From contig NC_014833.1 of NCBI RefSeq assembly GCF_000179635.2, positions 3,030,001 through 3,062,000 on the forward strand: 32,000 nt of DNA, written 5' to 3'. This document shows, piece by piece, positions 11,113 through 27,413 of this stretch (the stretch's first letter is position 1; every line of letters starts with the position of its first letter). The DNA is from Ruminococcus albus 7 = DSM 20455 (GTDB lineage Bacteria; Bacillota; Clostridia; Oscillospirales; Ruminococcaceae). Position numbers and translations under genes: made by a program. Under the pieces are notes generated by a model. That model made no database searches. It saw only the letters and a list, made by a program, of their open reading frames with translations, and had not been told where the DNA came from.

Positions 11113-11141
11113 TTGACTTTGCTGGTGGGAGATAGTATAAT
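11113..11141 (+). promoter_or_regulatory. sigma-A-type promoter TTGACT-17-TATAAT in front of the orphan immunity gene
   Basis: TTGACT at 11113-11118, a 17-nt spacer, and TATAAT at 11136-11141. Confidence 0.55.
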
Positions 11142-11146
11142 GATAT

Positions 11147-11196
11147 CATGAGTGAGGGTATACAACGAAGAATTAATCTGTGCATGTGAAAGATAA
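11147..11196 (+). pseudogene. 3' stub of a toxin gene
   Basis: ..TATACAACGAAGAATTAATCTGTGCATGTGAAAGATAAGGAGA aligns with the end of the 933-aa gene ..TATACAACGAAGAAGTGCTCTATGCATATGTAAGATAAGGAGA, including the stop and the RBS of the following gene. Confidence 0.6.
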
Positions 11197-11208
11197 GGAG
11201 AACATTTT

Positions 11209-11688
11209 ATGGAGTACAATTTTTATGTTGAAAAGCCTATCGACAGAGATGAATTACACCAAAGTATAATAGACATATTAAAAGAGTTATCAAATAAAAA
11301 ACAGGTCGATGATGACGACGATATTATTGCATGTTATCCTCTTCTAATATATATTTATGGTCCTGAATATGGAGCAGATTGTGTTAAGGAAGAATATGGA
11401 TTCGAATTGAGCTGGGAATTGACATTTGAAGTCTTTTCAAAAAATGAAACTGATAATGAAGTTGAGAATTTAAGGTTTTTCTTTAAGGTAATTAATTATT
11501 TGGTTGAAAAGTTTGATATTGACATCTTTGTCTTAGCGGATACGGGTGGTACTTGGATAATGAAAAGTCTGGGAGAAATAAAGGAATTACGAGATACAGA
11601 TATATTTAATTATCCTTTTGAACTGCTAAAGTGTGCAGCGGATTTTGAACGCTGTGAAGCAGAAAGATTTGGTATGAATATTTTATAA
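11209..11688 (+). CDS. orphan immunity-like protein (homolog of 21208..21672)
   Basis: 159 aa, acidic, no signal peptide. Roughly 85-90% identical by eye to the 154-aa protein downstream of the toxin-like gene. The RBS context AAGGAGA is conserved. Confidence 0.75.
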   Translation: MEYNFYVEKPIDRDELHQSIIDILKELSNKKQVDDDDDIIACYPLLIYIYGPEYGADCVKEEYGFELSWELTFEVFSKNETDNEVENLRFFFKVINYLVEKFDIDIFVLADTGGTWIMKSLGEIKELRDTDIFNYPFELLKCAADFERCEAERFGMNIL

Positions 11689-11989
11689 AAGTTATACTTC
11701 TTTTGACATCGTTGAGATATCTACTAATTTATATTATGAAGTATCGGATAAATATTCGTTTGAATATTTAGAAACACTGGCTCAGGTTAGAATGATAGCT
11801 GAAAACCAAGTATGTAAAACCGCTGAAGAATACACTTTGATTAGTTCACTGTTTTGTGATTATGAGTATACTTATGATACCGCAGTTGATAATGTAAATA
11901 AAGTCAAAAGAATAACAGATAAGTATTATAAGCTTAAATCTTCATTAAAATTCAGAAATTCTGTTTTTTAATGATTATGGTGAATAATT

Positions 11990-12472: not shown

Positions 12473-12477
12473 TAACA

Positions 12478-13020: not shown

Positions 13021-13078
13021 TACTTACCTAAGAATCGCATTGAAAAAGAGTTTCTATTTAGAAGTTAAGAATTACTAT

Positions 13079-13239
13079 TCGGACCTTATTTGGACTTTAT
13101 CTCCGCCAAAGACTGCTTGAGACCACTTCAAATCACTTGAAACGCAGACCTCAGAAACTCCGCAACATCGCAGATAAGCTGAGATAACATTCAATTACAA
13201 TGGGCAGCGGCTATCGTTCAAGTCCCGTTTGCCGCACCA
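13079..13239 (+). repeat. att block copy B (138-nt conserved arm plus 23-nt core)
   Basis: Same 161-nt block as at 10759 and 22342. Core at 13217-13239. Confidence 0.65.
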
Positions 13240-13247
13240 AAACAAGA

Positions 13248-13278
13248 CCTCGTAAACACGGCGTTTGCGAGGTTTTTT
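13248..13278 (+). terminator. intrinsic terminator after the tRNA-like end
   Basis: CCTCGTAAAC..GTTTGCGAGG plus TTTTTT. Confidence 0.6.
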
Positions 13279-13295
13279 CATGCCCGAAATCGAGG

Positions 13296-13320
13296 TTTGG
13301 ACTTTATTTTGGACCTTATT
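13296..13320 (+). promoter_or_regulatory. putative integrase arm-type sites
   Basis: TTTGGACTTTATTTTGGACCTTATT. In addition, TTTGGGTGTTA occurs twice in tandem at 13373-13394, overlapping the int stop. Confidence 0.4.
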
Positions 13321-13333
13321 GGGGAAAAAGTTT

Positions 13334-13365
13334 CGGCGGGAGCCCTGTGTATAGAGCTCCCGCCG
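13334..13365. terminator. GC-rich hairpin between att and the integrase stop
   Basis: CGGCGGGAGC..GCTCCCGCCG, the same as at 2622. Confidence 0.5.
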
Positions 13366-13391
13366 ATTTTTGTTTGGGTGTTATTTGGGTG

Positions 13392-14602
13392 TTAGCCAGC
13401 TTCTTTCCCCTCGATTACCTCCGCCATAATATTGCTCGCCCTGCGCTTGCTCTCTGCGAAGTAATGACTGTAAGTAGACATCGTAGTCACAGGCGTGCTG
13501 TGACCTAACATTGCAGCAACTGTGGTCGGATCAACTCCTGCTTCGATCTCGACCGATGCAAAGAAATGCCTGAAGCTGTGAAGTCCATAGAATGGGAAAT
13601 TCCTGCGTTCACACTCTCGCATCAGCCATGTGTATGGCGTGTTCGGATGCATGGGCTGACCGTCCCATTTTGTGAACAGGCGGTCGTGTTCCTGCCACTC
13701 GTCTCCGAGATTGGCTTTGTAGCTATCCTGATCATGCTTGTATGCTTTCAGCAGACCGATGACAGCAGGCGGAAGATCGACCATCCGCGTGGATCTCTCT
13801 GTCTTTGTCGCATCGGAGTATATACCCTTGTCTGCAGTGTAGTTTGAAGTGTGGTCGATCTTTACAGTGCCACGTTCAAAATCAATATTCTTCCATTCGA
13901 TGCCAAGCAGTTCTCCACGCCTGCAACCCGTGTATATAGCCAGTGTGAAAAACACCTTGTATTTCATCGGCGCTTCACGAAGAATCTTCATGAACTCACG
14001 TGCCTGTTCTTTTGTGTAGATGTGCTTCTCGGGTTTCTTGTACGCTTTCCCGCTTGCATCTATTTTAGGTATCATGACTTTTGAACACGGATTTGTATTC
14101 ACCATGTCCAGCCTTATCGCATACTCGAATATGGATGAGATGAAAGATAAATGATGCCGCATTGTCTTTTGCGACAGCGGTTTTCCGTTGCGCTTGTTTG
14201 CACCCGGCTTTGCAAGTGAGTTGATGAATTTCTGAATGTCCCGCGCAGTTATCTTGTCTATGCGCAGATGTCCCAGCGCAGGAATGACCCTGTCTGCAAT
14301 GAGATGTTCACGCTGAAGTGTCGTACTGCGGTGATTGAGTTCAGCATATTCGGTCGCCCACATCTCAATTACTTTCTGGAACTTGACAGCCGCAGTCACC
14401 TGACCATGCGCGCACTCCTCCTCGAACAGTATCGCAATGCGCTGTACCTCTTTTTCAGCTTGTTTGACAGACATATTTTCAGGTGGTTTCCATGTCCTGA
14501 ACCGAACCATCTGCTTTCCGTGCACATCATAACCGCAGTACGCACGAATGCGGTATGATGTAACTTCACCTTTCTTGTTTTACGTTTTTCAATGTACGCC
14601 AT
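13392..14602 (-). pseudogene. int: tyrosine recombinase/integrase with a -1 frameshift at codon ~9
   Basis: Same ATG as copy 1 (MAYIEKRK..), but the run at 14578-14581 is T4 where copy 1 has T5 (3868-3872). The rest (track ORF 13392..14525) is intact through the catalytic motifs. Combining the two copies gives a ~403-aa intact reading frame. Confidence 0.85.
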
Positions 14603-14710
14603 GTGTTTCGTCCTTTCGATTTATATTTGCCTGTCGGCAACGCCATTCTACCACAGACTGACGGGCATATCCAGTTGACACGCAAACGTTAATTTCTGCA
14701 ACATCTTTTT

Positions 14711-14911
14711 CTACCGAACCACTAACTCGCCGTTCAGGTATTTGTGCAGTATCTCTTTGTTGATCAGATATTTTTTGCCCGCTTTGAAGCAAGGCAGTTC
14801 ACCCGACCTGCACATCTCGCGGATGCGGTACTCTGTTAGTCCGTCCACAAGTGCAGCAGCTTCTTTTATCGTTAGCATAGTTATTTTATTTTCTGTTTTG
14901 GTTTCAGCCAT
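14711..14911 (-). CDS. excisionase-family helix-turn-helix DNA-binding protein
   Basis: Identical translation to 4002..4202. Confidence 0.75.
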   Translation of the reverse strand: MAETKTENKITMLTIKEAAALVDGLTEYRIREMCRSGELPCFKAGKKYLINKEILHKYLNGELVVR

Positions 14912-15010
14912 GTTGTTATCACTCTCCTTGATGTCTCATGAGTTCTGTCTTGTGATAAATTTGCTGTTCATTTTTGATCTTCCTCGTATAATAAAAGTAG
15001 TAGTTTTTAG

Positions 15011-16436
15011 AGTTCCTCTCCAAGAACTATGGTATAATATTGTTTAGATGCTGTGGATTGGTTTGATCTTCCTACCGTATGACGGTTTACGAAAGGCTCC
15101 GACCGCAGTCTCTATGCAATTTGTTGATCAGTTAGATACCGCCCGACGGTTTATTTAGAACGAGGTTACATTAGCGTAGAGTCTCTGTGGATCTAAACAG
15201 CATCAATAATTTTTGGAGGTATCATTATGATCGTTGTTGGTATTGATGTGGCAAAGGACAAGCATGACTGCTTTATTGTTGATTCTGAAGGTACAGTACT
15301 CTTTGATGTGTTCACTATCCCAAACACTCTTGACGGCTTTAATATCCTGCTTGATAACATCAAGTCCGTTACCGAAAATTTTGACATAATAAAAGTAGGA
15401 CTCGAGGCTACGGGACATTACAGCTACAATCTGTTGGGATTTCTGTTGAACAACGGCCTGCCAACCTACGTTCTGAACCCTTTGCACACTAATCTTTACC
15501 GAAAAAGCCTTACACTTCGTAAAACGAAGACAGACAAGGCAGATGCGCGCGTGATTGCTTCTATGCTAATGTCTTGCGTAGACCTAAAGCCCTACACAAA
15601 TACATTATATCAGAGCGAAGAGCTAAAGTCAATGACCAGATACAGATTTGACAAGGTTTCCGAGCGTGCAAAGCTCAAGACCTCCGTATCAAGGCTTGTG
15701 ACTATTCTCTTTCCCGAACTTGAAGCGCTCGTGCCTTCGCTGCACATGAAGTCTGTCTATACTCTTTTGAGCGAGTTTCCTTCAGCGCAGCATATCGCAA
15801 ATGCTCACCTTACAAGGCTTGCCAATCTGCTTTCAGAGACTTCCAAAGGTCACTACGGCAAGGACAAAGCTATTCAGATCAGAGGTGCCGCAAGACGCTC
15901 TGTCGGCTCTGTAATGCCTGCAAAGTCGCTGGAACTCAGGCACACCATAAAGCTCATTGCTGACCTGACCGAGCAGATAGATGAGATAGAAACCGAGATA
16001 AAGAAGCTGGTCGATGCAACCGACACTACACTTCTGACCGTTCCCGGTCTCAGCTATTCAACTGTCGCTATGATCCTCGCAGAGGTCGGTGACTTTTCAA
16101 ACTTCGCAACACCCGACAAAGTACTTGCATTTGCGGGAATGTCGCCCTCTACATACCAATCGGGACAGCTGACGAATTGTTATGCCAAGATGGAAAAGCG
16201 CGGCTCAAAGTATCTTCGCTATGCTCTCTACAACGCTGCCAAATTCGTCTGCACCTGGGACAAGACATTCAAAGATTATCTCGCCAAGAAGCGAGCCGAG
16301 GGCAAACATTACAATGTTGCATTATCTCACGCTGTCAAGAAACTCGTCAGACTCATTTTTGCTCTTGAAAAGTCTCATTCGCCATATCAGCCTGTTGTTT
16401 GAAATTTTTGTTAATCTTCATTTTTAGGGGTTGACT
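15011..16436 (+). mobile_element. IS110-family insertion sequence, copy 2 (ends approximate)
   Basis: Same position and sequence context as the copy in E1, inside the shared 4.5-kb tract. Confidence 0.5.
15227..16402 (+). CDS. IS110-family DEDD transposase/recombinase
   Basis: Identical 391-aa translation to 4518..5693. Confidence 0.9.
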   Translation: MIVVGIDVAKDKHDCFIVDSEGTVLFDVFTIPNTLDGFNILLDNIKSVTENFDIIKVGLEATGHYSYNLLGFLLNNGLPTYVLNPLHTNLYRKSLTLRKTKTDKADARVIASMLMSCVDLKPYTNTLYQSEELKSMTRYRFDKVSERAKLKTSVSRLVTILFPELEALVPSLHMKSVYTLLSEFPSAQHIANAHLTRLANLLSETSKGHYGKDKAIQIRGAARRSVGSVMPAKSLELRHTIKLIADLTEQIDEIETEIKKLVDATDTTLLTVPGLSYSTVAMILAEVGDFSNFATPDKVLAFAGMSPSTYQSGQLTNCYAKMEKRGSKYLRYALYNAAKFVCTWDKTFKDYLAKKRAEGKHYNVALSHAVKKLVRLIFALEKSHSPYQPVV

Positions 16437-16646
16437 TTTGATAGTTAGTCTTTCTATTGAAATTTAGGGCTTGACGCCACGCAAAACCCGCGTACCTACG
16501 CACTTATCTCGCGATTTTTGAAATATTGACACCACACTTTTCAGCAATTTGCGTGATTGACACCAATTCCCGATACGCCAAAACCCCCGTAGAATGCGGT
16601 CGGCGTTGCCGTCCGCTGTGAGATTTGCGGCGAATTGACGCCGCAC
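16431..16646. repeat. array of five TTGAC(R)CC-type motifs (iteron-like), copy 2
   Basis: Same as 5722-5937, offset by 10709. Confidence 0.45.
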
Positions 16647-16658
16647 TTTAACCTGCAC
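16464..16658 (-). CDS. hypothetical basic 64-aa protein
   Basis: Identical to 5755..5949, with the same caveat. Confidence 0.3.
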   Translation of the reverse strand: MQVKVRRQFAANLTADGNADRILRGFWRIGNWCQSRKLLKSVVSIFQKSRDKCVGTRVLRGVKP

Positions 16659-16872
16659 ATCGTTTCCTCCTGATATATCTGCCCGAATAATACGATACGG
16701 GTAAATATCGAATCATACTATTCCGCAACAATATCGCTCACAGCCGCGCACAAATCGCTTGTGTGGCGTTTTGTTGGCGTGGTGGACTAACTACCCGACA
16801 GGCGATATTTGTCGGGCACAAATCGGCTCACGTTCCGAGTTTCAACTCCGGCACCAGGATACCTCGCTTTTC

Positions 16873-18081
16873 TTAGATTTTTTGCCTTAATCTCGTGGCA
16901 CTTCTAAGGACAATATCCTCGAATGACATTCTCACGATAGGTACACGCTTGCCGTTGATGAGTACATACTCACTGCCTGAACCGTCACCCTCACGACCTT
17001 TGCCGTCACCCACAGCTGAGCCGTCACCCTGCTCAGACAATGTATCTAAAGGCTTTTCGACACTTCGGGTGCCGGCTGGACAGCAGCTCTCGGGGTACAG
17101 CAACCTGCCGTCACTGCTGTCACCCGCTCGGTCGTAGGTCAGCTCCAGCCAACGTTTTCCGTGACTGCGTTTGATCTGGAATCGTATACCATAGCCATTC
17201 AACTCCTGCCAGTGCTGCATGAGTTTCTTGCTGACCATGTTGCTTGGCAAGTGCATACCGAATCGGTTTTCAAGTTCTGCACTCAACTCGGTCGCCGTTG
17301 CTGACAGCTTTTCTTTCTCCGACATCATGTCATGGACTGCGAACACAAAAGTATCGGGCGGCTTGTCCTCACGTTCATCAGTAAGTAACCAGCGTGCGCC
17401 CTTTCTCGCAAGGGACAATTCACTGTCTTCAATATCACGACCCGTCGCATACAGCACAGCCTGCCCGCCGCACCGCTTGTCCTTTTTCAGAACAAGCATA
17501 CCGTCCACGCAACCATTCAGACCAGTGCTGCCCGAGATCATATTAAACGGATCGCTGTCCATCGCTTTACGCAGATGATGAACAAGAACTATGCTTATGT
17601 CAAGCTGTTCAGCCAGAGATTTCAGCGGTATCAACTCAGCATAGTCACTGCCGTAGCTGTTGTCCGTTTCGCTCCGCACCATCTGCAACGTATCGATGAC
17701 CACCAGCCGCAGGTCATCATGCTCCGACTTGAACTTTACTATCTGTTCGCACAGACCATCGCTGATAGTATCCGCTTTCAGCGCAAAGTGAAGCTTCTCC
17801 GATGGCTCATCGGTCAGTTCATACAACCGACTTTGTATCCTCTGCCAGCTGTCTTCGAGACAAAAATACAGCGCCGTACCTTGCCGTGTCGGACGTTCCA
17901 GCAGTTTTTCTCCTTTCGATATTGCAAGGCAAAGTTCCAGAGCCAACCACGATTTTCCGGCCTTGGGCGAGCCTGCTAGAATGTACAGCCCCTGCGAGAT
18001 GAGACCTTCGACTGCAAACACTGTTGGTTTGTACAGCGTGGTCATGATCTCCTCGCAGGATTTTGTTTTCAGTTCTCTCAA
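16873..18081 (-). CDS. RepA-like RecA-fold ATPase (AAA_25-type)
   Basis: Track ORF 16873..18102. I prefer the TTG at 18081, which has the same AGGAGG plus 8-nt spacer as copy 1. The protein is identical to copy 1, although the 5' ~110 nt carry synonymous differences. Confidence 0.8.
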   Translation of the reverse strand: MRELKTKSCEEIMTTLYKPTVFAVEGLISQGLYILAGSPKAGKSWLALELCLAISKGEKLLERPTRQGTALYFCLEDSWQRIQSRLYELTDEPSEKLHFALKADTISDGLCEQIVKFKSEHDDLRLVVIDTLQMVRSETDNSYGSDYAELIPLKSLAEQLDISIVLVHHLRKAMDSDPFNMISGSTGLNGCVDGMLVLKKDKRCGGQAVLYATGRDIEDSELSLARKGARWLLTDEREDKPPDTFVFAVHDMMSEKEKLSATATELSAELENRFGMHLPSNMVSKKLMQHWQELNGYGIRFQIKRSHGKRWLELTYDRAGDSSDGRLLYPESCCPAGTRSVEKPLDTLSEQGDGSAVGDGKGREGDGSGSEYVLINGKRVPIVRMSFEDIVLRSATRLRQKI

Positions 18082-18290
18082 TATATCGACCTCCTTTTTC
18101 ACTTGTATAAGGAAAGATGAACGTGTTTTAATACCCCTGCTTTACAAAAAGTTTAAAATATTTTATGTTTTGCACATATGGGACGGTCTAAAGTTGTTAT
18201 TTATGCCGATGGCGAATTGTATATAACATCGAGAAAGAGCTTAGTTGATCAACGTATTATGTTGGTATTTCTGAATTAATAATTAACCTG

Positions 18291-18320
18291 TTGACACTTT
18301 ATACTTTAATATGATATAAT
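18291..18320 (+). promoter_or_regulatory. strong sigma-A-type promoter TTGACA-18-TGATATAAT
   Basis: TTGACA at 18291-18296 and an extended -10 TGATATAAT at 18312-18320, ~70 nt upstream of the 933-aa gene. Confidence 0.6.
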
Positions 18321-18392
18321 TTTTATCTGTGAGTTATTTATAAAATATGATTCACATTGCCATATTGGTGAAAACAGTATAGGAGGAATAAA

Positions 18393-21194
18393 ATGAAAGT
18401 AAAAAAATTATTAGCGATAGCATTGTCATTATGTATGCTATACGGCGAAGCAAGCTATGGTGTTCCGTTTATAAAACAGAGCATAACTGCGCAGGCAGCA
18501 ACTTCTGATAATGGTTGTTATTCTTTCAATGCAACAACAGGTGAACTTACACTTAGCGGTGTGGTGGACAAAGACACCTTATCCGAATTTAAACGTTCAA
18601 TTAATATTAAGACTGATATTAAATCTGTTGTAGCTAAAAATGGAACTGTCCTTCCTGAAAATTGTAGCTATCTATTTTCATACTTAGAAAATTGTACTTC
18701 TATCGACCTTTCAAAGGCGGATACAAGCAATGTTAAAAAAATGAGTTTCATGTTCTCACGTTGTTACAACCTAACATCACTTAACATTAGGAACTTCGAT
18801 ACAAGCAATGTTACAAGCATGGGTCAAATGTTCTCTTATTGTTCCAATCTGACTTCAGTTGATGTTAGCAGTTTTGATACAAGCAAGGTTACAGATATGG
18901 TTGCTATGTTCACTAGTTCCGGACTGACATCACTCGATTTAAGCGGTTTTAATACAAGTAATGTTACAAATATGACACAAATGTTCAAAAATTGTACAAA
19001 ATTGACTTCAGTCGATGTTAGCAGTTTTGATACAAGTAATGTTACAAATATGATACAAATGTTTGATTCTTGTTACGCTTTGACTTCACTTGATGTAAGC
19101 GGTTTTGATACAAGCAAGGTTACAAGTATGGGTGCTATGTTCTTTAATTGTTATAATCTTACCACACTTGATGTAAGTGGTTTTGATACAGGCAAAGTAA
19201 CATCTATGGGAAATATGTTCTACTTTTGTGACAAACTGACCAAACTTGATGTAAGCGGATTTGATACAAGTAATGCTACAACTACAAGAGGTATGTTCTA
19301 TTTCTGCCAAAGTTTAACCACACTTGATGTTAGCGGATTTGATACAAGCAAAGTAACGGATATGAGAGAAATGTTCTATTTCTGTAATGGCTTAACTTCA
19401 CTTGATTTGCGCAGATTTGATACAAGCAAAGTAACAAACATGAGTGGTATGTTCTTTTACTGTAAAAATTTAACCACACTTGATGTTAGCGGATTTGATA
19501 CAAGCAAAGTAACGGATATGAGAGAAATGTTCTATTCCTGTCATGACTTAACTTCACTTGATTTGCGCAGATTTGATACAAGCAATGTTACAGATCTGAA
19601 ATCTATGTTCTATGGCTGTAAAGACCTTACCAGCCTGGATCTAAGCAGTTTTGATACAAGCAGTGCTACAAATATGACCGATATGTTCAAAGATTGCAAA
19701 AAGCTTAAATCACTTACTCTTGGCATAAATTTCAGAAATATACCAGAAAAAGCTGCTCTTCGAAACGGTTATGGCTGGATTAAAAGAATTCCAAAATTGA
19801 AACATGTCAGCGGTAACGGAGAATATGCCGTTATTGATAATGATGGTTATAACACTTACTATCTTTTCGAAGCATATCAACCCACATATCCTACCAAAAT
19901 CAAATACGAATACAACGAACAATATCACCAGGTAAAATTTACATGGAATAAGATATTACTTGCTGAAAAATACGGCATACTTGTATATCTTGCAGGCAAG
20001 TGGAGAATACAGACACAGGATATCCCTGCTACGACCACAAGCTACACTACTCCAGAGAATTCCATATTATCCAGTTCGACTTACTATGTTGCTATCGCTG
20101 CAAAGGTAAACGGTAAGTGGGATACAGCAAACGCTATCAAAAATTATTTGACAATCAAAATTACTAAGGATGGTTTGTTAGATTCGGATGGCGATGGAAT
20201 ACCAGATGATGAGGATGAATTTCCATTAACACCATTAACTGAAGATGAGAAAACTGTAATAGAGTTTTTTAATTCTGCTGAAAAATTTGAAATCTATTAT
20301 TTATCAAAATTCTGTACTCGATTCGATGCTACCCCAATTCAATGTATTACATACATTAATGTGTTCAGACAATATGCTGATTATGATGTCGATGGCGTAC
20401 AGCAAGGTCTTAAAGATATTGGTTTAGTATGTGATATAGATTCATTGAAATTTTATTATGGCGAATATTGTAATTACAAAAATGGAACCTCTTGGGCAGA
20501 AATACAGGCACATGGTTACGAAGAATGGTATGTTTGTTATCATTGGTTTTTAGCTGAGTGGATGTGGGGAGTCTCTGCGCAATTGTTACAAGATGCTTAT
20601 AAAGTCCCCAAAGACGTAGAAGAAAACGTAAAATTTGACTTTAGCGTATTTGATGATACTTTTGATGTTGAAAGCTATATAATTGATAATCAAAAAAGAT
20701 CAACAACACATCCTTCAAATCTAAAATATGAACCATACGGAGCTCCATTTTCTAATAAGAAGTCTTGGGGAGATATGGGCGAAAAGCAAGCGGCTGAACA
20801 TCTTGCGGAAAATGGATATGATGTAGAAATGCTACCAGAGGTTTACAAAGAAGTAGATGGTAAAATAATCGGAAATGGTTATGGTAAAGATATCAAAACT
20901 AATCCAGATTGTAGAATAGAAGGAAAAGTATACGATATCTATTCCCCTTCCACCCAAAATTTAACAACTATAAAAAAAGAAGTACTAAAGAAATCTAGGC
21001 AGCAGACATCTAATGTAGTGTTAAATTTAAATAATCCAGAAAAATATTTTGATGATGGAACTTTAGTATCAGATTGGCAAAGCGTAGATGAAATAGTTAA
21101 AATGTTCAAATATAACTCTAATAATAGTTTAAATGAATTAGATGAGTTGATTATTCTATACAACGAAGAAGTGCTCTATGCATATGTAAGATAA
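18393..21194 (+). CDS. secreted 26-residue-repeat (LRR/DUF285-like) surface protein with a non-repetitive C-terminal toxin-like region
   Basis: 933 aa with RBS TAGGAGGA. Signal peptide MKVKKLLAIALSLCMLYGEA..AQA. About 14 repeats of LTSLDVSGFDTSKVTxMxxMFxxCxx. A beta-rich module follows (aa ~490-590), then a DSDGDGIPDDEDEF linker, then ~330 aa of unique C-terminus containing GEKQAAEHL..NPDCRIEGK. Confidence 0.85.
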   Translation: MKVKKLLAIALSLCMLYGEASYGVPFIKQSITAQAATSDNGCYSFNATTGELTLSGVVDKDTLSEFKRSINIKTDIKSVVAKNGTVLPENCSYLFSYLENCTSIDLSKADTSNVKKMSFMFSRCYNLTSLNIRNFDTSNVTSMGQMFSYCSNLTSVDVSSFDTSKVTDMVAMFTSSGLTSLDLSGFNTSNVTNMTQMFKNCTKLTSVDVSSFDTSNVTNMIQMFDSCYALTSLDVSGFDTSKVTSMGAMFFNCYNLTTLDVSGFDTGKVTSMGNMFYFCDKLTKLDVSGFDTSNATTTRGMFYFCQSLTTLDVSGFDTSKVTDMREMFYFCNGLTSLDLRRFDTSKVTNMSGMFFYCKNLTTLDVSGFDTSKVTDMREMFYSCHDLTSLDLRRFDTSNVTDLKSMFYGCKDLTSLDLSSFDTSSATNMTDMFKDCKKLKSLTLGINFRNIPEKAALRNGYGWIKRIPKLKHVSGNGEYAVIDNDGYNTYYLFEAYQPTYPTKIKYEYNEQYHQVKFTWNKILLAEKYGILVYLAGKWRIQTQDIPATTTSYTTPENSILSSSTYYVAIAAKVNGKWDTANAIKNYLTIKITKDGLLDSDGDGIPDDEDEFPLTPLTEDEKTVIEFFNSAEKFEIYYLSKFCTRFDATPIQCITYINVFRQYADYDVDGVQQGLKDIGLVCDIDSLKFYYGEYCNYKNGTSWAEIQAHGYEEWYVCYHWFLAEWMWGVSAQLLQDAYKVPKDVEENVKFDFSVFDDTFDVESYIIDNQKRSTTHPSNLKYEPYGAPFSNKKSWGDMGEKQAAEHLAENGYDVEMLPEVYKEVDGKIIGNGYGKDIKTNPDCRIEGKVYDIYSPSTQNLTTIKKEVLKKSRQQTSNVVLNLNNPEKYFDDGTLVSDWQSVDEIVKMFKYNSNNSLNELDELIILYNEEVLYAYVR
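18660..19725 (+). repeat. 78-bp (26-codon) coding tandem repeats
   Basis: Periodic FDTS(K/N)VT..MF..C..LT(S/T)LD units. Includes a near-identical 156-bp duplication (19313 vs 19469). Confidence 0.85.
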
Positions 21195-21207
21195 GGAGAT
21201 CATTTTT

Positions 21208-21672
21208 ATGGAGTACAATTTTTATATTGAAAAACCTATCCAGAGAGATGAATTACACCAAAGTATAATAGACATATTAAAAGAGTTATCAAATAAAGAA
21301 CACATCGATGGTGACGATGTTATTTCATGTTATCCTCTTCAATTGTTTATTTATGGCCCTGAATATGGAGCAGATTATGTTAAGGAAGAATTTGGATTCG
21401 AATTGAGTTGGGAATTGACATTTGAAGTCTTTTCAAAAAATGAAACTGATAATGAAGTTGAGAATTTAAGGTTTTTCTTTAAGGTAATAAATTATTTGGT
21501 TGAAAAGTTTGATATTAATATCTTTGTCTTAGAGGATACGGGTGGTACTTGGATAATGAAAAGTCTGGGAGAAATAAAGCAATTACGAGATACAGATATA
21601 TTTAACTATCCATTTGAACTGCTAAAGTGTTCGTCTGATTTTGAACGCTGTGAAGCAAAACAATTTGGCTGA
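21208..21672 (+). CDS. cognate immunity-like protein
   Basis: 154 aa, acidic, no signal peptide. It starts 13 nt after the toxin-like gene stop and has RBS AAGGAGA. A paralog lies at 11209. Confidence 0.7.
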   Translation: MEYNFYIEKPIQRDELHQSIIDILKELSNKEHIDGDDVISCYPLQLFIYGPEYGADYVKEEFGFELSWELTFEVFSKNETDNEVENLRFFFKVINYLVEKFDINIFVLEDTGGTWIMKSLGEIKQLRDTDIFNYPFELLKCSSDFERCEAKQFG

Positions 21673-21870
21673 TTATAGGTGCAACACCTAGGTATTGTTG
21701 GTCTAAATGGGAACAAACACAATATCTAAATAAGTATGCACATGGATTTAGGACGGAGATAATAACAGGATTATCCTATGAATAATTCGAAGAAGAAGCC
21801 ACGTGATAATGGTATAGATCAATGAATAGAAAACAGGGCGTTCGCTTAGACCGCCCTATCCTTTTATAAG

Positions 21871-22133
21871 GTAAGAGTAAAATATCCCGCGTCTTCCCTC
21901 CCGTTGACCAATGATGTATAATAAACTCCAAGAAACTTGATGGAGTAAATTAGAGTCCGTTGGACACGGGAGGTATCATTATGCAGAATAAAACAACAGA
22001 GATCGCAACGATCAGACAGGCAGTACGCCTGCAGGAATGGACTGCACAGATTGAAGCGCAACAGGCAAGCGGTCTGACGATCCGGGAATGTTGCAAAGAA
22101 AACGGTATCAAGCCCAACACGTATTACAACCGC
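21871..22133 (+). mobile_element. relic of a second, diverged IS66-family element (end plus first ~55 codons of orfA)
   Basis: GTAAGAGTAAAATATCCCGCG resembles the IS66 end GTAAGCGTATAACCCCCCGCA. The track ORF 21960..22199 reads ..MQNKTTEIATIRQAVRLQEWTAQIEAQQASGLTIRECCKENGIKPNTYYNR, then homology to tnpA stops near 22133. Confidence 0.6.
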
Positions 22134-22341
22134 TTTTATCGATTGATTATGTTAATTTCAAATTTACCATGGAGGTCAAAATATGCACGAAATAGTTGAA
22201 AATGCAGTACATAATGAATTGTTTGGTGTATATAAATGGTGAAACTGTAATTTTTATGCTGCTTAACAGCATAAGCTATATTTTTGATACCAAAGATAAG
22301 ATGAGTGAAATCGAGTATTTTTGTAGAATAGTTTTGAATCT

Positions 22342-22502
22342 TCGGACCTTATTTGGACTTTATCTCCGCCAAAGACTGCTTGAAACTACTTCAAATCACT
22401 TGAAACGCAGACCTCAGAAACTCCGAAACACCGCAGATAAGCTGAGATAACATTCAATTACTATGGACAGCGGCTATCGTTCAAGTCCCGTTTGCCGCAC
22501 CA
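22342..22502 (+). repeat. att block copy C (138-nt conserved arm plus 23-nt core)
   Basis: Same 161-nt block as at 10759 and 13079. The downstream sequence differs (E3-type). Confidence 0.65.
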
Positions 22503-22509
22503 AAGAAAA

Positions 22510-22579: not shown

Positions 22580-22663
22580 TCCATTTTTTTATAAAATAAG
22601 TAAGCGTATAACCCCCCGCATCATAAAAGCAAACAGCCGGGCAGATAACACCCGGCTGTAACA

Positions 22664-23202
22664 TCATATTCTGGCTTTGATTTCTCCATTTCTCTTTGCG
22701 TCCATGTATATTTCTTTGAAATCAGCTTTGCTGTTCGGACCGAATATGATCGGCATAACAGATACAAGGCCATCGGAAATGATCGCATTTTTAAATGGCA
22801 GAAGCGCTGCATCAAGCAAAGTTGGCATCGGTGCATTTCTCAGCATTTCCTCCCAACTGCTGACAATGCCGTTTACAAGAAAACAGAATTGTCATCGATC
22901 GATATAAATACCGATCCCTTTTTCAAATGTCGCTCAATGATAAATCTGCCGGTGATGCACCCTTTCCAGCTTTTAAGTATCTCCATGTGTTCTTCGGGCA
23001 GATCCGATCGCTCAAGATAATCATCAATGATCCATGTCCGTTCCCATAAAAAGTGGGCAACCTCCGCAGCATCCTGTGGGTCGATCATTCCTTGCCCGAA
23101 ATAATCTTCCTCAGGAAGTATATGATATTCTCTGTTCACATAGTCAAGCAGTGGAAAAAACAGTTCATAAAACAGCTTTGCATCTTCATTACTAAGTTTC
23201 AT
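22664..23202 (-). pseudogene. fourth IS66 ORF (unknown function), frameshifted in this copy
   Basis: Track ORFs 22873..23202 and 22664..22846 together equal the intact 179-aa ORF of copy 2. The run at 22880-22883 is A4 here and A5 in copy 2. Confidence 0.7.
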
Positions 23203-24703
23203 TTTCTTCCCTCCATGGTAATAATATCGTCCCCGCAGGCTGTGAAAACAGCTCGGTCAGGTATTTCTCAGCATCAACACCGTTCGCCTGTGCAGTTGAA
23301 ATGATCGAATACAGCGTTGCACTTGATCTGGCTCCGTTTGCTGTATTTGAAAACAGCCAATTTTTTCGGCCTAACGCAAACGGTCTTATTGCGTTTTCGG
23401 CTCTGTTGTTGTCGATAGGCACGTCTCCGTTTTCAAGAAACGTGTAAAGATATTTCCGTTCATTCAACGCATATCTTACTGCATCTGTCAGCTTGCCCTT
23501 ACCACTGACCTGAACATTTTCAAGCCACGCAAAAAACTCGTCAAGCAAAGGCTTTACCTTCACAAGGCGCTGTTTATATCTGTATTCTGTGGAGCTGTCG
23601 GCAAGCAGATTTTCTTCGTGATATATCTTGTTGAAATATTCTACTGCCTTTGCCGCAACAGAAGTGCTGTGCAGCTTTTGGTCGTTCGGAAGAGCCTGAA
23701 TAAAACCACGCCTTGCATGAGTCATACAGCCGCATCGCTTAGCACCCTCGACTGCATTGTAGGCATCGTATCCGTCACAGATAAGATAGCCGATAAATCC
23801 TTTCAGGAAATTCGAGGCGTGCTCACCCTTTCGTGTCGGCTGATAATCGAAAATGATGATGCTCCTGTCATTCATTTTGCCGTTGCAGTAGACCCACATT
23901 CTTGATGTCGTGGTAGGCTTTCGGCCTTCCTCGTGAAGCACCTGAACGGTCGTTTCATCGGCATGGATCATCTGCCCTGCGATAAGCATCTCATGCATTT
24001 TCTCCACAATCGGCAAACACCATTTTTCGGCAGCAGTGCCTACCCAATTAGACATAGTCGCTTTGAGCAGAGGTATGTTTTTGGAATTAAAGTCCTTTTC
24101 CTGACGGTGCAGAGGTACTGACTTTGCATATTTTTCGTAGATGATATGAGCCAGAAGTTCGGGAGAGCAATAGCTTCCCGGGATCATAGCGTGAGGATAT
24201 GGCGCACGGATGATATGACAAGGTTCGTCCCTTTCTTCGGGCTTTTCTCCGCACTCGGGACACTTGTACTTATGTACTATATGCCTGCGGATATGATATT
24301 TTGGCGGCGTAAATATAAGTTCATCGTAAGCCTTTTCGGGAGTCAGTTCTTCCATTTCGGCGCCGCATATTTCGCATACCGGGTTGTCAATTTTGTGATG
24401 TTCTTCTTTTACAGGCAGATTGTTCATCCATTCATCGTGAGTGCGTTTTTTCTTGCGCTTGTGTTCGGGAACAGTAATTGTTTCGGCAGATTTAGCTGCG
24501 GATTTTTCTTCATTGTTTCCGAACATGGAAAGCTGAACACCGAACTCCTTTTCCATAACAACAGATGTCTGCTCTGTTTTTCTTCCGAATATCTGCTTTC
24601 TGAACCACGCTAACTGCTGATTGGCAAGTGCTAGTTCTTCCTTGAGAACAGCGTTTTCATTACGGAGCGATACAATTTCCGATGTCATATTTGGTTCGGA
24701 CAT
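23192..24703 (-). CDS. tnpC: IS66-family DDE transposase
   Basis: Track ORF 23192..24769. Start taken at MSEPNMTSE, 6 nt after GGAGGGG. N-terminal coiled coil, CEICGAEM..CPECG zinc motif, and ..MIHADETTVQVL... Confidence 0.9.
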   Translation of the reverse strand: MSEPNMTSEIVSLRNENAVLKEELALANQQLAWFRKQIFGRKTEQTSVVMEKEFGVQLSMFGNNEEKSAAKSAETITVPEHKRKKKRTHDEWMNNLPVKEEHHKIDNPVCEICGAEMEELTPEKAYDELIFTPPKYHIRRHIVHKYKCPECGEKPEERDEPCHIIRAPYPHAMIPGSYCSPELLAHIIYEKYAKSVPLHRQEKDFNSKNIPLLKATMSNWVGTAAEKWCLPIVEKMHEMLIAGQMIHADETTVQVLHEEGRKPTTTSRMWVYCNGKMNDRSIIIFDYQPTRKGEHASNFLKGFIGYLICDGYDAYNAVEGAKRCGCMTHARRGFIQALPNDQKLHSTSVAAKAVEYFNKIYHEENLLADSSTEYRYKQRLVKVKPLLDEFFAWLENVQVSGKGKLTDAVRYALNERKYLYTFLENGDVPIDNNRAENAIRPFALGRKNWLFSNTANGARSSATLYSIISTAQANGVDAEKYLTELFSQPAGTILLPWREENET

Positions 24704-24795
24704 AAAGCACCCCTCCGTTCGTGATGATACTTTAATGATACCACGAAAAGAGGGGCTTTTCAAGCACATATTCTGAATATTCGGTAAGTATTGCC

Positions 24796-25152
24796 TTAAT
24801 ACAGCGCCCCCGGCTTTCCCTCACGGATAGCCTTCGGCTGCTCTATTTTCAAGCCTTCCAGAAGCCAGCGAATTTGCTGAGATGTGAGCATTACTGCTTC
24901 GGTCTCACTGCGCGGCCACTGGAATCTTCCGTTGTCAAGGCGCTTGTACAACAGCAGAAAACCATCGCCCTCCCACAGCAGACCTTTGATGCGGTCACAA
25001 CGTCTGCCGCAGAACAAAAACAATGCTTTCGAGAACGGGTCAAGTCGAAGCTGAGCCTGAACGATAGTCGCAAGTCCGTCTATCCCGCGTCGAAGGTCGG
25101 TGTATCCCGTAACAAGATAGACCTGTGCGTCCGCTGCCAGATCATTCAGCAT
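24796..25152 (-). CDS. tnpB: IS66 Orf2-like accessory protein
   Basis: 118 aa: ..VYLVTGYTDLRRGIDGLATIV..LFLFCGRRCDRIKGLLWEGDGFLLLYKRLDNGRFQWP... Confidence 0.9.
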   Translation of the reverse strand: MLNDLAADAQVYLVTGYTDLRRGIDGLATIVQAQLRLDPFSKALFLFCGRRCDRIKGLLWEGDGFLLLYKRLDNGRFQWPRSETEAVMLTSQQIRWLLEGLKIEQPKAIREGKPGALY

Positions 25153-25463
25153 AGCTCATGCACCAAAGCGGTCAGAGTGTCCGCAGATATATCTGCCGGA
25201 AGAGATATTTGAAGTCCGTTTTTCTCAATGCGGATATTTTCGTTTGAGCAAGGAACTGATACAGGAACGATGGTCGGAGAATTTTCGATATACTTTTCAC
25301 GAACTTTTCTTAGGCGGTTGTAATACGTGTTTGGCTTGATCCCTTTTTCTTTGCACCATTCCCGGATCGTCAGACCGCTTGCCTGCTGTGCTTTGATCTG
25401 CGCAGACCATTCCTGAAGCTGCATTTCTTTTTTGATTGTTGTGATGGATGTTGTTTTGTCCAT
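25146..25463 (-). CDS. tnpA: IS66 orfA accessory HTH protein
   Basis: Track ORF 25146..25511. Start taken at MDKTTSITT, 8 nt after AGGAGG. ..EWSAQIKAQQASGLTIREWCKEKGIKPNTYYNRL... Overlaps the tnpB start. Confidence 0.85.
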   Translation of the reverse strand: MDKTTSITTIKKEMQLQEWSAQIKAQQASGLTIREWCKEKGIKPNTYYNRLRKVREKYIENSPTIVPVSVPCSNENIRIEKNGLQISLPADISADTLTALVHELC

Positions 25464-25642
25464 ACCTGTTACCTCCTTGTCTAATCGTCTCCAATGAACT
25501 CCATGGATCAATTTGGATTATTCAATTTACTTCATGGTGTTCCTTGGAGTTTATTATACTTTATTAGACTTCGGTGGGGTAGGTGCTGGGGGTTATACGC
25601 TTACTAAAATAATAGATGTTTCCTGAAATATTCCAAATCACA

Positions 25643-27349: not shown

Positions 27350-27413
27350 GTAAGCGTATAACCCCCCGCATCATAAAAGCAAACAGCCGGGCAGATAACA
27401 CCCGGCCGTAACA

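What the first reader, a model, noticed from the sequence alone, without database searches (positions are those of the whole stretch)
18291..21672. Element-borne polymorphic-toxin-like module using a 26-residue LRR scaffold instead of Rhs, LXG or CdiA
The gene and its partner:
- A near-consensus promoter drives a 933-aa protein. It has a Sec signal peptide, about 14 tandem 26-residue repeats (LTSLDVSGFDTSKVTxMxxMFxxCxx, the surface-protein LRR/DUF285-like class), a beta-rich module and a single DSDGDGIPDDEDEF linker. These are followed by ~330 non-repetitive residues.
- Thirteen nt downstream lies a 154-aa acidic cytoplasmic protein.
- A second copy of that small gene, preceded by a toxin 3' stub, lies at 11147-11688.

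Interpretation:
- A variable C-terminus, a tightly coupled small gene and an orphan copy make up the genetic signature of contact-dependent or polymorphic toxin-immunity systems such as WapA, Rhs and CdiA.
- I cannot name a described system in which this LRR repeat array is the delivery scaffold, nor one carried as cargo of a minimal int-xis-rep element.
- The C-terminus contains GEKQAAEHL..NPDCRIEGK. This can be read as a PD-(D/E)xK-like nuclease motif, but the PD to ExK spacing is atypically short. The activity is therefore unknown.
Basis: partly seen in the sequence, partly recalled or inferred. Interest (0 to 1): 0.75.

Follow-up and report, generated by a model that had tools for sequence, protein, structure and literature searches.

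The report
LRR-scaffold tRNase toxin with immunity gene
A small integrated mobile element in the rumen bacterium Ruminococcus albus 7 carries a secreted repeat protein that ends in a known type of tRNA-cutting toxin, followed by its antidote gene. The weapon is a familiar kind, mounted on a carrier not previously described for it.

Summary
The window holds a 12/12 promoter, a 933-aa ORF, a 154-aa acidic ORF 13 nt downstream, and a second copy of the small gene preceded by a toxin 3' stub.

- **Toxin:** the C-terminus (aa ~770-933) belongs to Pfam CdiA_C (PF18451). Sequence and predicted fold both match Burkholderia pseudomallei 1026b CdiA-CT (PDB 4G6V_A), a PD-(D/E)XK tRNase. All four catalytic residues are conserved.
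- **Immunity:** the best fold match of the 154-aa protein is the partner chain of that same complex, CdiI (4G6V_B), though the match is weak.
- **Toxin family spread:** the same toxin family ends VgrG, CdiA, Rhs and PT-TG proteins elsewhere.
- **Swapping at two levels:** Ruminococcus homologues keep signal peptide, PARCEL/DUF285 LRR array and beta module, then diverge completely. A 140-aa pre-toxin domain without library matches ("module A") sits in front of at least three toxin types, mostly on VWA/TSP3 scaffolds. Three toxin types each pair with a different downstream gene.
- **Mobile context:** the module lies in one unit of a three-unit tandem array of int-xis-rep elements, bounded by an exact 25-bp repeat.

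The LRR-toxin fusion is a singleton in every database searched, and delivery is only inferred. Verdict: a new variant of a known kind.

The parts
18291..18320 (+). Sigma-70-type promoter of the toxin-immunity operon (TTGACA, 18 nt, TG-n-TATAAT)
   Evidence: Scores 12/12, the best site in the scanned region. Sequence read.
18393..21194 (+). 933-aa polymorphic toxin gene (R. albus 7 ADU23178.1)
   Evidence: ORF. Identity and source.
18393..18497 (+). Predicted Sec signal peptide (aa 1-35: MKVKK, hydrophobic core, AQA|A)
   Evidence: Judged by inspection. The first 60 aa are 37-80% identical in 16 scaffold homologues. No signal-peptide predictor was available.
18618..19751 (+). Array of 26-residue PARCEL / DUF285 / BspA-type LRR repeats (aa 76-453): 13 clear units plus caps
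   Evidence: TIGR02167 at 1.3e-132, DUF285 at 6.7e-84 and LRR_5, 78-nt DNA periodicity, repeat register.
19755..20162 (+). Beta-rich (Fn3-like) module (aa 455-590) ending in the conserved junction WDTANAIK
   Evidence: 45-60% identical in 16 homologues, and similarity stops here. 14 of 35 homologues with the junction end 8 residues after it.
20181..20222 (+). Single TSP3-like calcium-binding motif DSDGDGIPDDEDEF (aa 597-610): the junction between scaffold and cargo
   Evidence: Position. D-x-D-G-D-G motifs open several alternative C-termini and precede module A in other scaffolds.
20193..20612 (+). Module A (aa 601-740): a pre-toxin domain with no match in the libraries searched
   Evidence: Found in front of other toxin types, mostly on VWA/TSP3 scaffolds. 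No Pfam or PDB match.
20700..21191 (+). C-terminal toxin domain (aa ~770-933): CdiA_C / CdiA-CT(II) Bp1026b family, PD-(D/E)XK fold, predicted tRNase. Predicted catalytic residues E797, D839, D848, K867
   Evidence: Pfam PF18451 at 43.9 bits. 4G6V_A by sequence, E=6e-5. AlphaFold model pLDDT 81. Foldseek 4G6V_A E=8.9e-7. Conserved columns. Active-site residues from PMC9086364.
21208..21672 (+). 154-aa acidic cytoplasmic immunity protein (ADU23179.1), 13 nt after the toxin stop
   Evidence: ORF, pI 4.36. Top Foldseek hit is 4G6V_B (CdiI): E=0.017, prob 1.00, TM 0.58. Only three relatives among 5.8 billion proteins.
11113..11141 (+). Own promoter of the orphan immunity gene (TTGACT, 17 nt, TATAAT)
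   Evidence: Scores 11/12.
11159..11208 (+). Stub of a lost toxin gene (last ~12 codons, ...YNEELICACER*) plus spacer
   Evidence: Homology to 21157-21207.
11209..11688 (+). Orphan immunity paralogue, 159 aa (ADU23170.1), 86% identical to the cognate copy
13217..13241 (+). 25-bp exact direct repeat: left boundary of the unit that carries the toxin. Further copies at 2505 and 10897
   Evidence: Four exact copies against 0 expected by chance. Alignment of the flanks.
22480..22504 (+). 25-bp exact direct repeat: right boundary of the unit that carries the toxin
13392..14525 (-). Tyrosine integrase of the element
   Evidence: Phage_integrase at 2.4e-25 plus SAM-like domains. Xer-like in NCBIfam.
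14711..14911 (-). Excisionase-type HTH protein (xis)
   Evidence: HTH_17 at 2.6e-10.
15227..16402 (+). IS110-family transposase inserted between xis and rep
   Evidence: DEDD_Tnp_IS110 at 7e-42 and Transposase_20.
16873..18102 (-). RepA/DnaB-like AAA_25 replication protein of the element
   Evidence: AAA_25 at 1.3e-22 and DnaB_C. DnaB-like in NCBIfam.

Best explanation
This is a Sec-dependent polymorphic toxin-immunity module of Ruminococcus albus 7, carried by a small tyrosine-integrase element. The 933-aa protein has four predicted parts.

- **Signal peptide:** inferred to send the protein out through Sec.
- **Scaffold:** the PARCEL/DUF285 LRR array and the Fn3-like beta module form a surface-protein chassis. 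This chassis also exists on its own, or with wall-binding or other C-terminal modules, in related Ruminococcus proteins. I infer that it binds the target cell or presents the toxin.
- **Cargo cassette:** after a TSP3-like calcium-binding motif comes 'module A', a 140-aa pre-toxin domain that the libraries searched do not contain. It precedes at least three unrelated toxin types, mostly on VWA/TSP3 scaffolds in other Ruminococcus. I infer a role in processing or in entry into the target cell, like the cytoplasm-entry part of CdiA-CT.
- **Toxin:** the last ~165 residues are a PD-(D/E)XK nuclease of the CdiA-CT(II) Bp1026b family. It is predicted to be a Mg2+-dependent tRNase using E797, D839, D848 and K867.

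The 154-aa acidic protein is translated from the same transcript. It is a CdiI-like immunity protein that binds and blocks the toxin in the producer cell.

A second immunity copy, 86% identical, sits behind the last 12 codons of a lost toxin allele in the neighbouring unit. It has its own strong promoter. It probably protects against a variant toxin made by sibling strains.

Cells that lose the element would become sensitive, so the module also favours keeping the element.

**Shown:** the gene structure, the family and fold of the toxin, the modular swapping, and the element boundaries.
**Inferred:** export, target binding, entry, tRNase specificity and neutralisation.
For: **Toxin identity**
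- Pfam CdiA_C scores above its gathering cut-off.
- phmmer finds PDB 4G6V_A at E=6e-5, aligning E/D/D/K.
- An AlphaFold model (pLDDT 81) has 4G6V_A as its only significant Foldseek hit, E=8.9e-7.
- The four catalytic residues given for 4G6V in PMC9086364 fall on invariant or near-invariant columns of a 25-sequence alignment, or on the phmmer alignment to 4G6V_A.

**Polymorphic-toxin character**
- An exhaustive HMMER search finds the domain at the C-termini of VgrG-like, DUF637/CdiA, Rhs+PT-HINT and PT-TG proteins.

**Scaffold and cargo modularity**
- 16 homologues share aa 1-590 and nothing after that.
- Of 35 homologues with the junction, 14 stop at it and 21 carry several different C-terminal classes.
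- Module A precedes three toxin classes, each paired with a different small downstream gene of 154, 116 or 113 aa.

**Immunity**
- It starts 13 nt downstream, is acidic and has no signal peptide. Its top fold hit out of 350,542 chains is 4G6V_B, the CdiI of the same complex.
- It has almost no relatives, which is typical of immunity proteins.
- An orphan copy with a stub and its own promoter exists, and a third, truncated copy lies elsewhere in the genome.

**Element**
- int, xis and rep are present, and four exact 25-bp repeats bound the units.

**Expression signals**
- A 12/12 promoter and an AGGAGG box.
Against: - No experiment was done. Toxicity, export, binding and neutralisation are all untested.
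- The Foldseek E-value for the immunity match is only 0.017, from a single-sequence model with pLDDT 63.
- The LRR-module A-CdiA_C fusion is a singleton. Its 90% cluster has one member. None of the 32 module-A loci found in GTDB genomes and JGI metagenomes shows LRR repeat motifs; those with enough upstream sequence show TSP3 motifs. It could be a recent chimera of uncertain fitness.
- None of the other C-termini on this scaffold matches a known toxin. Some look like wall anchors (SH3_3).
- One allele (P0119) has no obvious immunity gene next to it.
- The Pfam match covers only profile positions 2-46 of 81.
- The toxin domain is acidic, pI 4.6, which in my experience is unusual for a nuclease.
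- No anchor, dedicated processing peptidase or translocation partner was seen in the window.
Confidence: 0.75

Rival explanations
1. Same toxin and immunity, but delivered by contact, as with WapA. The protein stays on the producer's surface, held through the LRR/beta module or calcium-dependent wall interactions, and passes the toxin only to touching neighbours on the plant fibre.
For: The chassis is a surface-protein family. Homologues carry SH3_3, LysM or dockerin modules. This is a rival only for the delivery step of the best explanation.
Against: In this protein the C-terminal position, where homologues carry anchoring modules, is taken by the toxin. No LPXTG, SLH, LysM, SH3 or dockerin was found. 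From the sequence alone, a released, diffusible protein is at least as likely.
Confidence: 0.35
2. The module mainly serves the mobile element. Toxin and immunity act as an addiction or policing device that removes siblings which lose the element, rather than as a weapon against other species.
For: The module is cargo of an int-xis-rep unit inside a tandem array, with extra immunity copies in neighbouring units. Cargo G+C is 31-35% against 47% for the backbone.
Against: This does not exclude competition; both effects follow from the same mechanism. The element backbone occurs twice at 99.3% identity with different cargo, so the backbone does not depend on this module. LRR genes at ordinary chromosomal loci also have low G+C, 37%.
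Confidence: 0.25
3. It is an ordinary BspA/PARCEL surface adhesin that picked up a toxin cassette by chance. The C-terminus is a non-functional relic.
For: The fusion is a singleton. Most DUF285 proteins in the top 120 hits carry adhesion or anchoring modules and no toxin domain. The element neighbourhood is full of rearrangements, including inverted toxin fragments, frameshifted genes and IS copies.
Against: The ORF is intact over 933 codons behind a consensus promoter. The catalytic tetrad and all invariant family positions are kept. An intact, tightly coupled immunity gene is kept, along with a second full copy with its own promoter.
Confidence: 0.07
4. The toxin is aimed at eukaryotes such as rumen protozoa or fungi, as LRR-enzyme effectors of pathogens are, and not at bacteria.
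For: LRR-plus-enzyme architectures are known from type III effectors. There is a weak XopAC LRR hit. Some PARCEL proteins occur in eukaryotic microbes (PMC2996958).
Against: A cognate immunity gene and orphan copies are the mark of toxins active against the producer's own kind. By my knowledge, the characterised members of this toxin family act in bacterial competition through CDI, T6SS and Rhs contexts.
Confidence: 0.05

Closest known systems
CdiA-CT(II)/CdiI(II) of Burkholderia pseudomallei 1026b (PDB 4G6V; Pfam PF18451 CdiA_C)
   Same: The toxin domain is homologous by sequence and predicted fold, with the same E/D/D/K catalytic residues. The downstream protein has the CdiI chain of the same complex as its best fold match.
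   Different: No CdiB, no TPS or filamentous-haemagglutinin region and no VENN motif were seen. The host is a Gram-positive anaerobe and export is by a Sec signal peptide. Toxin identity to 4G6V_A is about 20% in the Foldseek alignment, and the immunity shows no detectable sequence similarity.
WapA/WapI of Bacillus subtilis (Sec-exported wall-associated Rhs-repeat tRNase toxin; from my knowledge of Koskiniemi et al. 2013)
   Same: Gram-positive host, N-terminal signal peptide, a long repeat scaffold, a C-terminal tRNase-type toxin, and an immunity gene immediately downstream.
   Different: The scaffold is a 26-residue LRR solenoid plus an Fn3-like module, not wall-binding repeats plus an Rhs/YD shell. 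No RHS repeats were detected. The toxin family is different.
S8-PTS of Gram-positive bacteria (signal peptide, BetaH, toxin, plus S8 peptidase and immunity; PMC9424270, bioRxiv 10.1101/2025.07.24.666436)
   Same: A Sec-dependent polymorphic toxin in Bacillota, built as a signal peptide, a receptor-binding or entry part and a swappable nuclease toxin, with an immunity gene next to it. It is possibly diffusible.
   Different: No S8 peptidase was found among the window ORFs scanned. Module A is acidic (pI 4.2), unlike the cationic helix released from BetaH. The N-terminal part is an LRR array of about 400 residues.
PARCEL / DUF285 / BspA-type LRR surface proteins (TIGR02167; PMC2996958)
   Same: The repeat array is a clear member of this class. 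Association with mobile elements was already noted for PARCEL genes.
   Different: That paper does not contain the words toxin or nuclease. Here the array is fused to a polymorphic-toxin cassette and paired with an immunity gene.
VWA/TSP3-scaffold toxins of human-gut and other Ruminococcus (for example the 1140-aa protein of Ruminococcus sp. Marseille-P6503, L009); not described in the literature I searched
   Same: They share the TSP3 motif, module A, the terminal toxin position and a small downstream gene. A fragment of such a gene lies inverted in the neighbouring element at 7697-8188.
   Different: The scaffold differs (VWA plus multiple TSP3 repeats). So do the toxin (ending ...GGGTQYDL...) and the putative immunity protein (116 aa).

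Membership tests
Polymorphic toxin systems (sensu Zhang/Aravind 2012) | Secreted multidomain protein with an N-terminal trafficking signal | tested here: inconclusive
   A signal-peptide-like N-terminus is seen by inspection and is conserved in 16 homologues. No predictor was available and no secretion data exist.
Polymorphic toxin systems (sensu Zhang/Aravind 2012) | C-terminal toxin domain shared with other delivery scaffolds | tested here: met
   PF18451 homologues sit at the C-termini of VgrG-like, CdiA (DUF637), Rhs+PT-HINT and PT-TG proteins.
Polymorphic toxin systems (sensu Zhang/Aravind 2012) | Conserved N-terminal region with abruptly diverging C-termini among homologues | tested here: met
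   16 homologues match aa 1-590 and none matches aa 597-933. Several C-terminal classes exist. Alleles at one chromosomal locus differ at the tip. The other C-termini are not shown to be toxins.
Polymorphic toxin systems (sensu Zhang/Aravind 2012) | Cognate immunity gene immediately downstream | tested here: met
   The gene follows after a 13-nt gap on the same strand. Its top fold hit is CdiI 4G6V_B, at E=0.017. Toxin class and downstream gene co-vary across module-A loci. Binding was not tested.
Polymorphic toxin systems (sensu Zhang/Aravind 2012) | Orphan toxin-tip / immunity cassettes | tested here: met
   An orphan immunity gene with a 12-codon toxin stub lies at 11159-11688. A third, truncated copy is in the genome.
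CdiA_C (PF18451) / CdiA-CT(II) Bp1026b PD-(D/E)XK tRNases | Profile match above the curated cut-off | tested here: met
   43.9 bits against a cut-off of 26.6. Only profile positions 2-46 of 81 are covered. The remainder aligns with family members.
CdiA_C (PF18451) / CdiA-CT(II) Bp1026b PD-(D/E)XK tRNases | Same fold as 4G6V chain A | tested here: met
   Foldseek E=8.9e-7, prob 1.00, TM (target) 0.64. It is the only hit below 0.001.
CdiA_C (PF18451) / CdiA-CT(II) Bp1026b PD-(D/E)XK tRNases | Catalytic residues E187, D214, D223, K242 | tested here: met
   They align with E797, D839, D848 and K867. Residue list from PMC9086364.
CdiA_C (PF18451) / CdiA-CT(II) Bp1026b PD-(D/E)XK tRNases | tRNA cleavage activity | not testable with these tools
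   Needs an enzyme assay. Family members differ in substrate (tRNA-Ala acceptor stem versus tRNA-Arg T-loop).
Contact-dependent inhibition (CdiB/CdiA two-partner secretion) | TPS secretion domain, FHA repeats, a CdiB transporter | tested here: not met
   No such Pfam or NCBIfam domains are in the protein or in the window ORFs scanned. I file only the toxin domain under this family, not the system.
Rhs / WapA toxins | RHS/YD repeats | tested here: not met
   No RHS_repeat hit.
LXG / T7SS toxins | N-terminal LXG domain; T7SS genes nearby | tested here: not met
   No LXG hit. The N-terminus resembles a signal peptide. No T7SS genes are in the window.
S8-PTS | Adjacent S8 subtilase and a BetaH domain | tested here: not met
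   No peptidase was found among the scanned window ORFs. BetaH has no model in the libraries used, so that part was not testable.
PARCEL / DUF285 LRR surface proteins | Tandem 26-residue repeats matching TIGR02167 / PF03382 | tested here: met
   1.3e-132 in 12 stretches, and 6.7e-84.
Tyrosine-recombinase integrative element | Integrase, excisionase and flanking direct repeats | tested here: met
   int, HTH_17 xis, and a 25-bp exact repeat present four times. Excision was not tested. No relaxase or conjugation genes were seen.

The most novel reading that the evidence does not exclude
The signal-LRR-beta-module chassis of Ruminococcus, together with the TSP3-module A junction, is a general Sec-dependent platform for delivering interchangeable toxins. 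Bacillota that lack a type VII system would use it. Module A would be a new entry or processing domain. Several of the unannotated C-termini on this chassis would be new toxin families, among them the glycine-rich hydrophobic ones with small membrane-protein genes downstream.
Probability: 0.3. Interest if true: 0.7.

Novelty: new variant of a known kind. Interest (0 to 1): 0.5.

Why it matters
- **Open question:** how strictly anaerobic gut and rumen Bacillota deliver protein toxins is largely unknown. [quoted passage not shown]
- **A testable case:** this locus has a plain Sec signal, a very common surface-protein repeat class as the candidate binding part, and a toxin-immunity pair whose solved relative gives precise mutations to make. 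It also has a 140-aa pre-toxin domain, shared across scaffolds and toxin types, that could be the entry or processing device.
- **Ecology:** R. albus 7 is a model fibre degrader that is reported to produce a bacteriocin (albusin B), so a defined toxin locus on a mobile element is relevant to competition in the rumen.
- **Limit:** the fusion is a singleton and every functional step is inferred.

Tried and rejected
- **Word-indexed search, aa 601-933:** it returned nothing, not even the protein itself. The exhaustive HMMER search then found 118 relatives.
- **Genome scan with the single C-terminal sequence:** nothing.
- **Megablast of the locus against plasmids and phages:** no match.
- **Pfam, NCBIfam and PDB sequence searches of seven alternative C-termini on the LRR scaffold:** no toxin family, only a weak SH3_3 hit. 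I therefore do not claim these are toxins.
- **Downstream genes at allelic LRR loci:** one allele has an overlapping 147-aa membrane-protein ORF. The other is followed directly by a lactococcin-972-like bacteriocin operon that is shared flank, not an immunity gene.
- **Module A:** no Pfam or PDB relative.
- **The alternative toxin on module A (GGGTQYD type):** no Pfam or PDB hit.
- **The 25-bp repeat:** to my eye it resembles a tRNA 3' end, but ARAGORN and Rfam find no tRNA or tmRNA in the window.
- **dN/dS between the two immunity copies:** 0.39, so no overall signal of diversifying selection.
rejected in favour of the alignment to 4G6V.
- **Lipoprotein reading (the UniRef name):** rejected. 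The Cys is preceded by Leu and is not conserved in homologues.

Full report
**1. Observation**

The window holds a 933-aa ORF at 18393-21194 and a 154-aa ORF at 21208-21672 on the same strand, 13 nt apart.

- **Promoter and ribosome-binding site:** upstream lies TTGACA-18 nt-TATAAT with a TG extension at 18291-18320. It is the only 12/12 site between 10700 and 22600. An AGGAGG box precedes the ATG.
- **Repeats:** the repeat region shows 78-nt periodicity. It matches NCBIfam TIGR02167, the 26-residue PARCEL repeat, at 1.3e-132 in 12 stretches. It also matches Pfam DUF285 at 6.7e-84 and BspA-type LRR_5. In register there are 13 clear units (aa 102-439) with degenerate caps.
- **Linker and small protein:** the DSDGDGIPDDEDEF motif is at aa 597-610. 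The small protein has pI 4.36.
- **Second copy:** a 159-aa copy, 86% identical, lies at 11209-11688. DNA homology begins at 11159, which covers the last 38 nt of the toxin gene.

**2. Source**

The exact protein is ADU23178.1 of Ruminococcus albus 7 (ATCC 27210 / DSM 20455), on a 3,685,408-bp contig. The immunity protein is ADU23179.1 and the orphan copy is ADU23170.1.

**3. The toxin**

- Pfam places aa 837-881 in CdiA_C (PF18451) at 43.9 bits, against a cut-off of 26.6.
- A sequence search of the PDB finds one real hit, 4G6V chain A, the CdiA-CT of Burkholderia pseudomallei 1026b, at E=6e-5.
- An exhaustive HMMER search of 1.84 billion representatives with aa 601-933 gave 118 hits. An alignment of 24 short hits supported an AlphaFold model of aa 741-933 with pLDDT 81.
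- The model's only significant Foldseek match in the PDB is again 4G6V_A: E=8.9e-7, prob 1.00.
- A review of CDI effectors lists that toxin as a PD-(D/E)XK-fold, Mg2+-dependent tRNase. It cuts the acceptor stem of tRNA-Ala and has active-site residues E187, D214, D223 and K242 (PMC9086364).
- Counting along the phmmer alignment, these residues correspond to E797, D839, D848 and K867 here. The last three sit on invariant or near-invariant columns of the family alignment.

**4. The toxin domain is polymorphic-toxin cargo**

Pfam scans of 20 longer hits show the same domain at the C-terminus of several delivery scaffolds:
- VgrG-like proteins (Phage_GPD);
- a CdiA-type protein (DUF637);
- an Rhs protein with PT-HINT;
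- a PT-TG protein;
- several other architectures.

**5. The immunity protein**

- The 154-aa protein has no Pfam or NCBIfam match.
- It has only three relatives among 5.8 billion proteins: itself, its paralogue and a 98-aa fragment.
- A single-sequence model is of moderate quality, pLDDT 63 and pTM 0.62.
- Its top Foldseek hit among 350,542 chains is 4G6V chain B, the CdiI partner of the same complex: E=0.017, prob 1.00, TM 0.58.
- On its own this E-value is weak. The coincidence with the toxin's match is what makes it persuasive.

**6. Modularity, level one: the scaffold**

- A search with aa 1-600 returned thousands of DUF285 proteins. The best are from Ruminococcus.
- Sixteen of the best share the signal peptide, the LRR array and the beta module up to the motif WDTANAIK. 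They show no similarity to aa 597-933.
- Among 35 homologues with that junction, 14 end eight residues later. The other 21 carry C-terminal extensions of 164-458 aa in several unrelated classes, often opening with a D-x-D-G-D-G motif.
- Two of them (P0119 and P0129) are alleles at the same chromosomal locus, next to TerD-TelA-YceG-FMN_red genes. They differ at their C-terminal tips.
- None of these other C-termini matches a known toxin. One class has an SH3_3 wall-binding hit.

So the chassis is a general surface-protein platform. Only the protein in this window is shown to carry a toxin.

**7. Modularity, level two: module A**

- The HMMER hits split the C-terminal third in two. aa 601-736 ('module A') match one set of proteins, and aa ~770-933 match another.
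- Module A has no Pfam or PDB relative.
- In full-length relatives it lies after a TSP3 motif in VWA-type secreted proteins. There it is followed by C-termini different from the one here.
- Scans of GTDB genomes and JGI metagenomes with a module-A alignment gave 32 loci. The two GTDB loci are from Ruminococcus, and many of the metagenome contigs are from human gut.
- None has LRR repeat motifs before module A.
- 29 carry one toxin type and 26 of these have the same 116-aa gene 16 nt downstream. Two carry another type with a 113-aa gene.
- With the 154-aa gene here, that makes three toxin types and three matching neighbour genes.

This co-variation is the usual sign of toxin-immunity pairs. It marks TSP3-module A-toxin-immunity as the mobile cassette.

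**8. Mobile context**

An exact 25-bp sequence (TTCAAGTCCCGTTTGCCGCACCAAA) occurs at 2505, 10897, 13217 and 22480, against 0 expected by chance. It divides the region into three tandem units.

- **Unit B (13217-22479):** tyrosine integrase, an HTH_17 excisionase, an IS110 insertion and a RepA/DnaB-like AAA_25 gene, then the toxin operon.
- **Unit A (2505-10896):** the same 4965-bp backbone at 99.3% identity, but with a split integrase ORF and different cargo.
- **Mini unit (10897-13216):** only the orphan immunity gene behind its own 11/12 promoter, and two membrane-protein ORFs.

Cargo G+C is 31-35% against 47% for the backbone. LRR genes at chromosomal loci are also low, at 37%.

**9. Mechanism**

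My best account is a Sec-exported modular toxin with these roles:
- the LRR/beta chassis binds the target or presents the toxin;
- TSP3-module A is a processing or entry device;
- the C-terminal tRNase arrests translation in cells that lack immunity;
- the downstream protein neutralises the toxin in the producer.

Whether the protein is released or stays on the surface cannot be decided from the sequence. In this protein the usual anchor position is taken by the toxin, which leans towards release.

The orphan copy with its stub (...YNEELICACER versus ...YNEEVLYAYVR) points to a lost variant toxin allele. dN/dS between the two immunity copies is 0.39.

**10. Comparison and novelty**

- The toxin-immunity pair is a distant member of a known, structurally solved family.
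- The system is not CDI, Rhs/WapA, LXG or S8-PTS, because the defining parts of each are absent.
- Functionally it is closest to WapA and to the S8-PTS of Gram-positive bacteria (PMC9424270; bioRxiv 10.1101/2025.07.24.666436).
- The classical survey lists ALF, ankyrin, beta-propeller, RHS, Sel1, TPR and tail-fibre repeats for Sec-dependent toxins, and LRR only as an immunity fold (PMC3482391).
- No paper in the searched library combines DUF285 with polymorphic toxins. The PARCEL paper does not mention toxins.

I rate it a new variant of a known kind. The rating is tempered by the fusion being a singleton and by the lack of any functional data.

Noticed in passing
window 2505-2529, 10897-10921, 13217-13241, 22480-22504: Four exact copies of a 25-bp sequence divide the region into three tandem units of 8392, 2320 and 9263 bp. 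This looks like repeated integration at one site. To my eye the core resembles a tRNA 3' end (…GTTCAAGTCC…CACCA), but ARAGORN and Rfam find no tRNA or tmRNA.
   Followed up: partly
window 2505-7468 vs 13217-18177: The int-xis-IS110-rep backbone is present twice at 99.3% identity, with the IS110 copy at the same position in both. In the first copy the integrase is split into two ORFs (2680-3393 and 3402-3893), while the second is intact. This suggests a recent duplication followed by decay.
   Followed up: partly
window 7697-8188 (- strand), with promoter remnant at about 7706: An inverted fragment of a VWA/TSP3-type polymorphic toxin, closely matching the middle of P0003 and the L009 protein. 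It abuts a 77%-identical copy of the rep-toxin intergenic region that ends within or just after the -35 hexamer. In the sister element the toxin slot has been rearranged.
   Followed up: partly
window 20193-20612 (aa 601-740 of the toxin): Module A is a ~140-aa aromatic-rich acidic domain with no Pfam or PDB match. It is conserved at 30-46% identity in front of at least three toxin types in Ruminococcus proteins. It is a candidate new pre-toxin or entry domain.
   Followed up: partly
outside the window, R. albus 7 genome (ADU23198.1): A third, truncated (93-aa) copy of the immunity gene exists elsewhere in the same genome. Full-length orphan-type copies occur in metagenome contigs, in one case directly beside an integrase and xis.
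   Followed up: partly
window 11990-12472 and 12469-13020: Two overlapping ORFs for predicted multi-pass membrane proteins (160 and 183 aa) follow the orphan immunity gene in the mini unit. Neither has a family match.
   Followed up: no
window 8735-9712 and 9739-10320: Two ORFs (325 and 193 aa) with signal-peptide-like or lipoprotein-like N-termini form the cargo of the first element. Neither has a family match.
   Followed up: no
window 22600-25605 and 27350-30354: Two IS66-family copies at 99.7% identity. The second has its transposase split (27414-27953 and 27943-28938). Between them lies another tyrosine integrase with an HTH insert (25701-27098). An inverted IS66 orfA-like fragment lies at 21940-22133, just after the immunity gene.
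   Followed up: no
L005 8925-9368; L005 10519-13672; L006 8770-9665: At the chromosomal locus of the allelic LRR proteins P0129 and P0119, one allele has an overlapping 147-aa hydrophobic ORF downstream, with apparent membrane-spanning segments. Both are flanked by a lactococcin-972-type bacteriocin operon (Lcn972-like peptide, DUF1430 protein, ABC ATPase).
   Followed up: partly
L008 949-4584 (- strand): Next to another LRR-scaffold protein (P0196, which has an overlapping 152-aa downstream ORF) lies a 1211-aa transglutaminase-core plus PT-HINT polymorphic toxin with a 179-aa gene after it. LRR-scaffold genes can therefore sit in toxin-rich neighbourhoods.
   Followed up: no
window 20616-20627 (aa 742-745): The sequence VEEN lies at the boundary between module A and the toxin region, one letter away from the VENN motif that marks CdiA-CT. 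It is not conserved in other module-A proteins and is probably coincidence.
   Followed up: no
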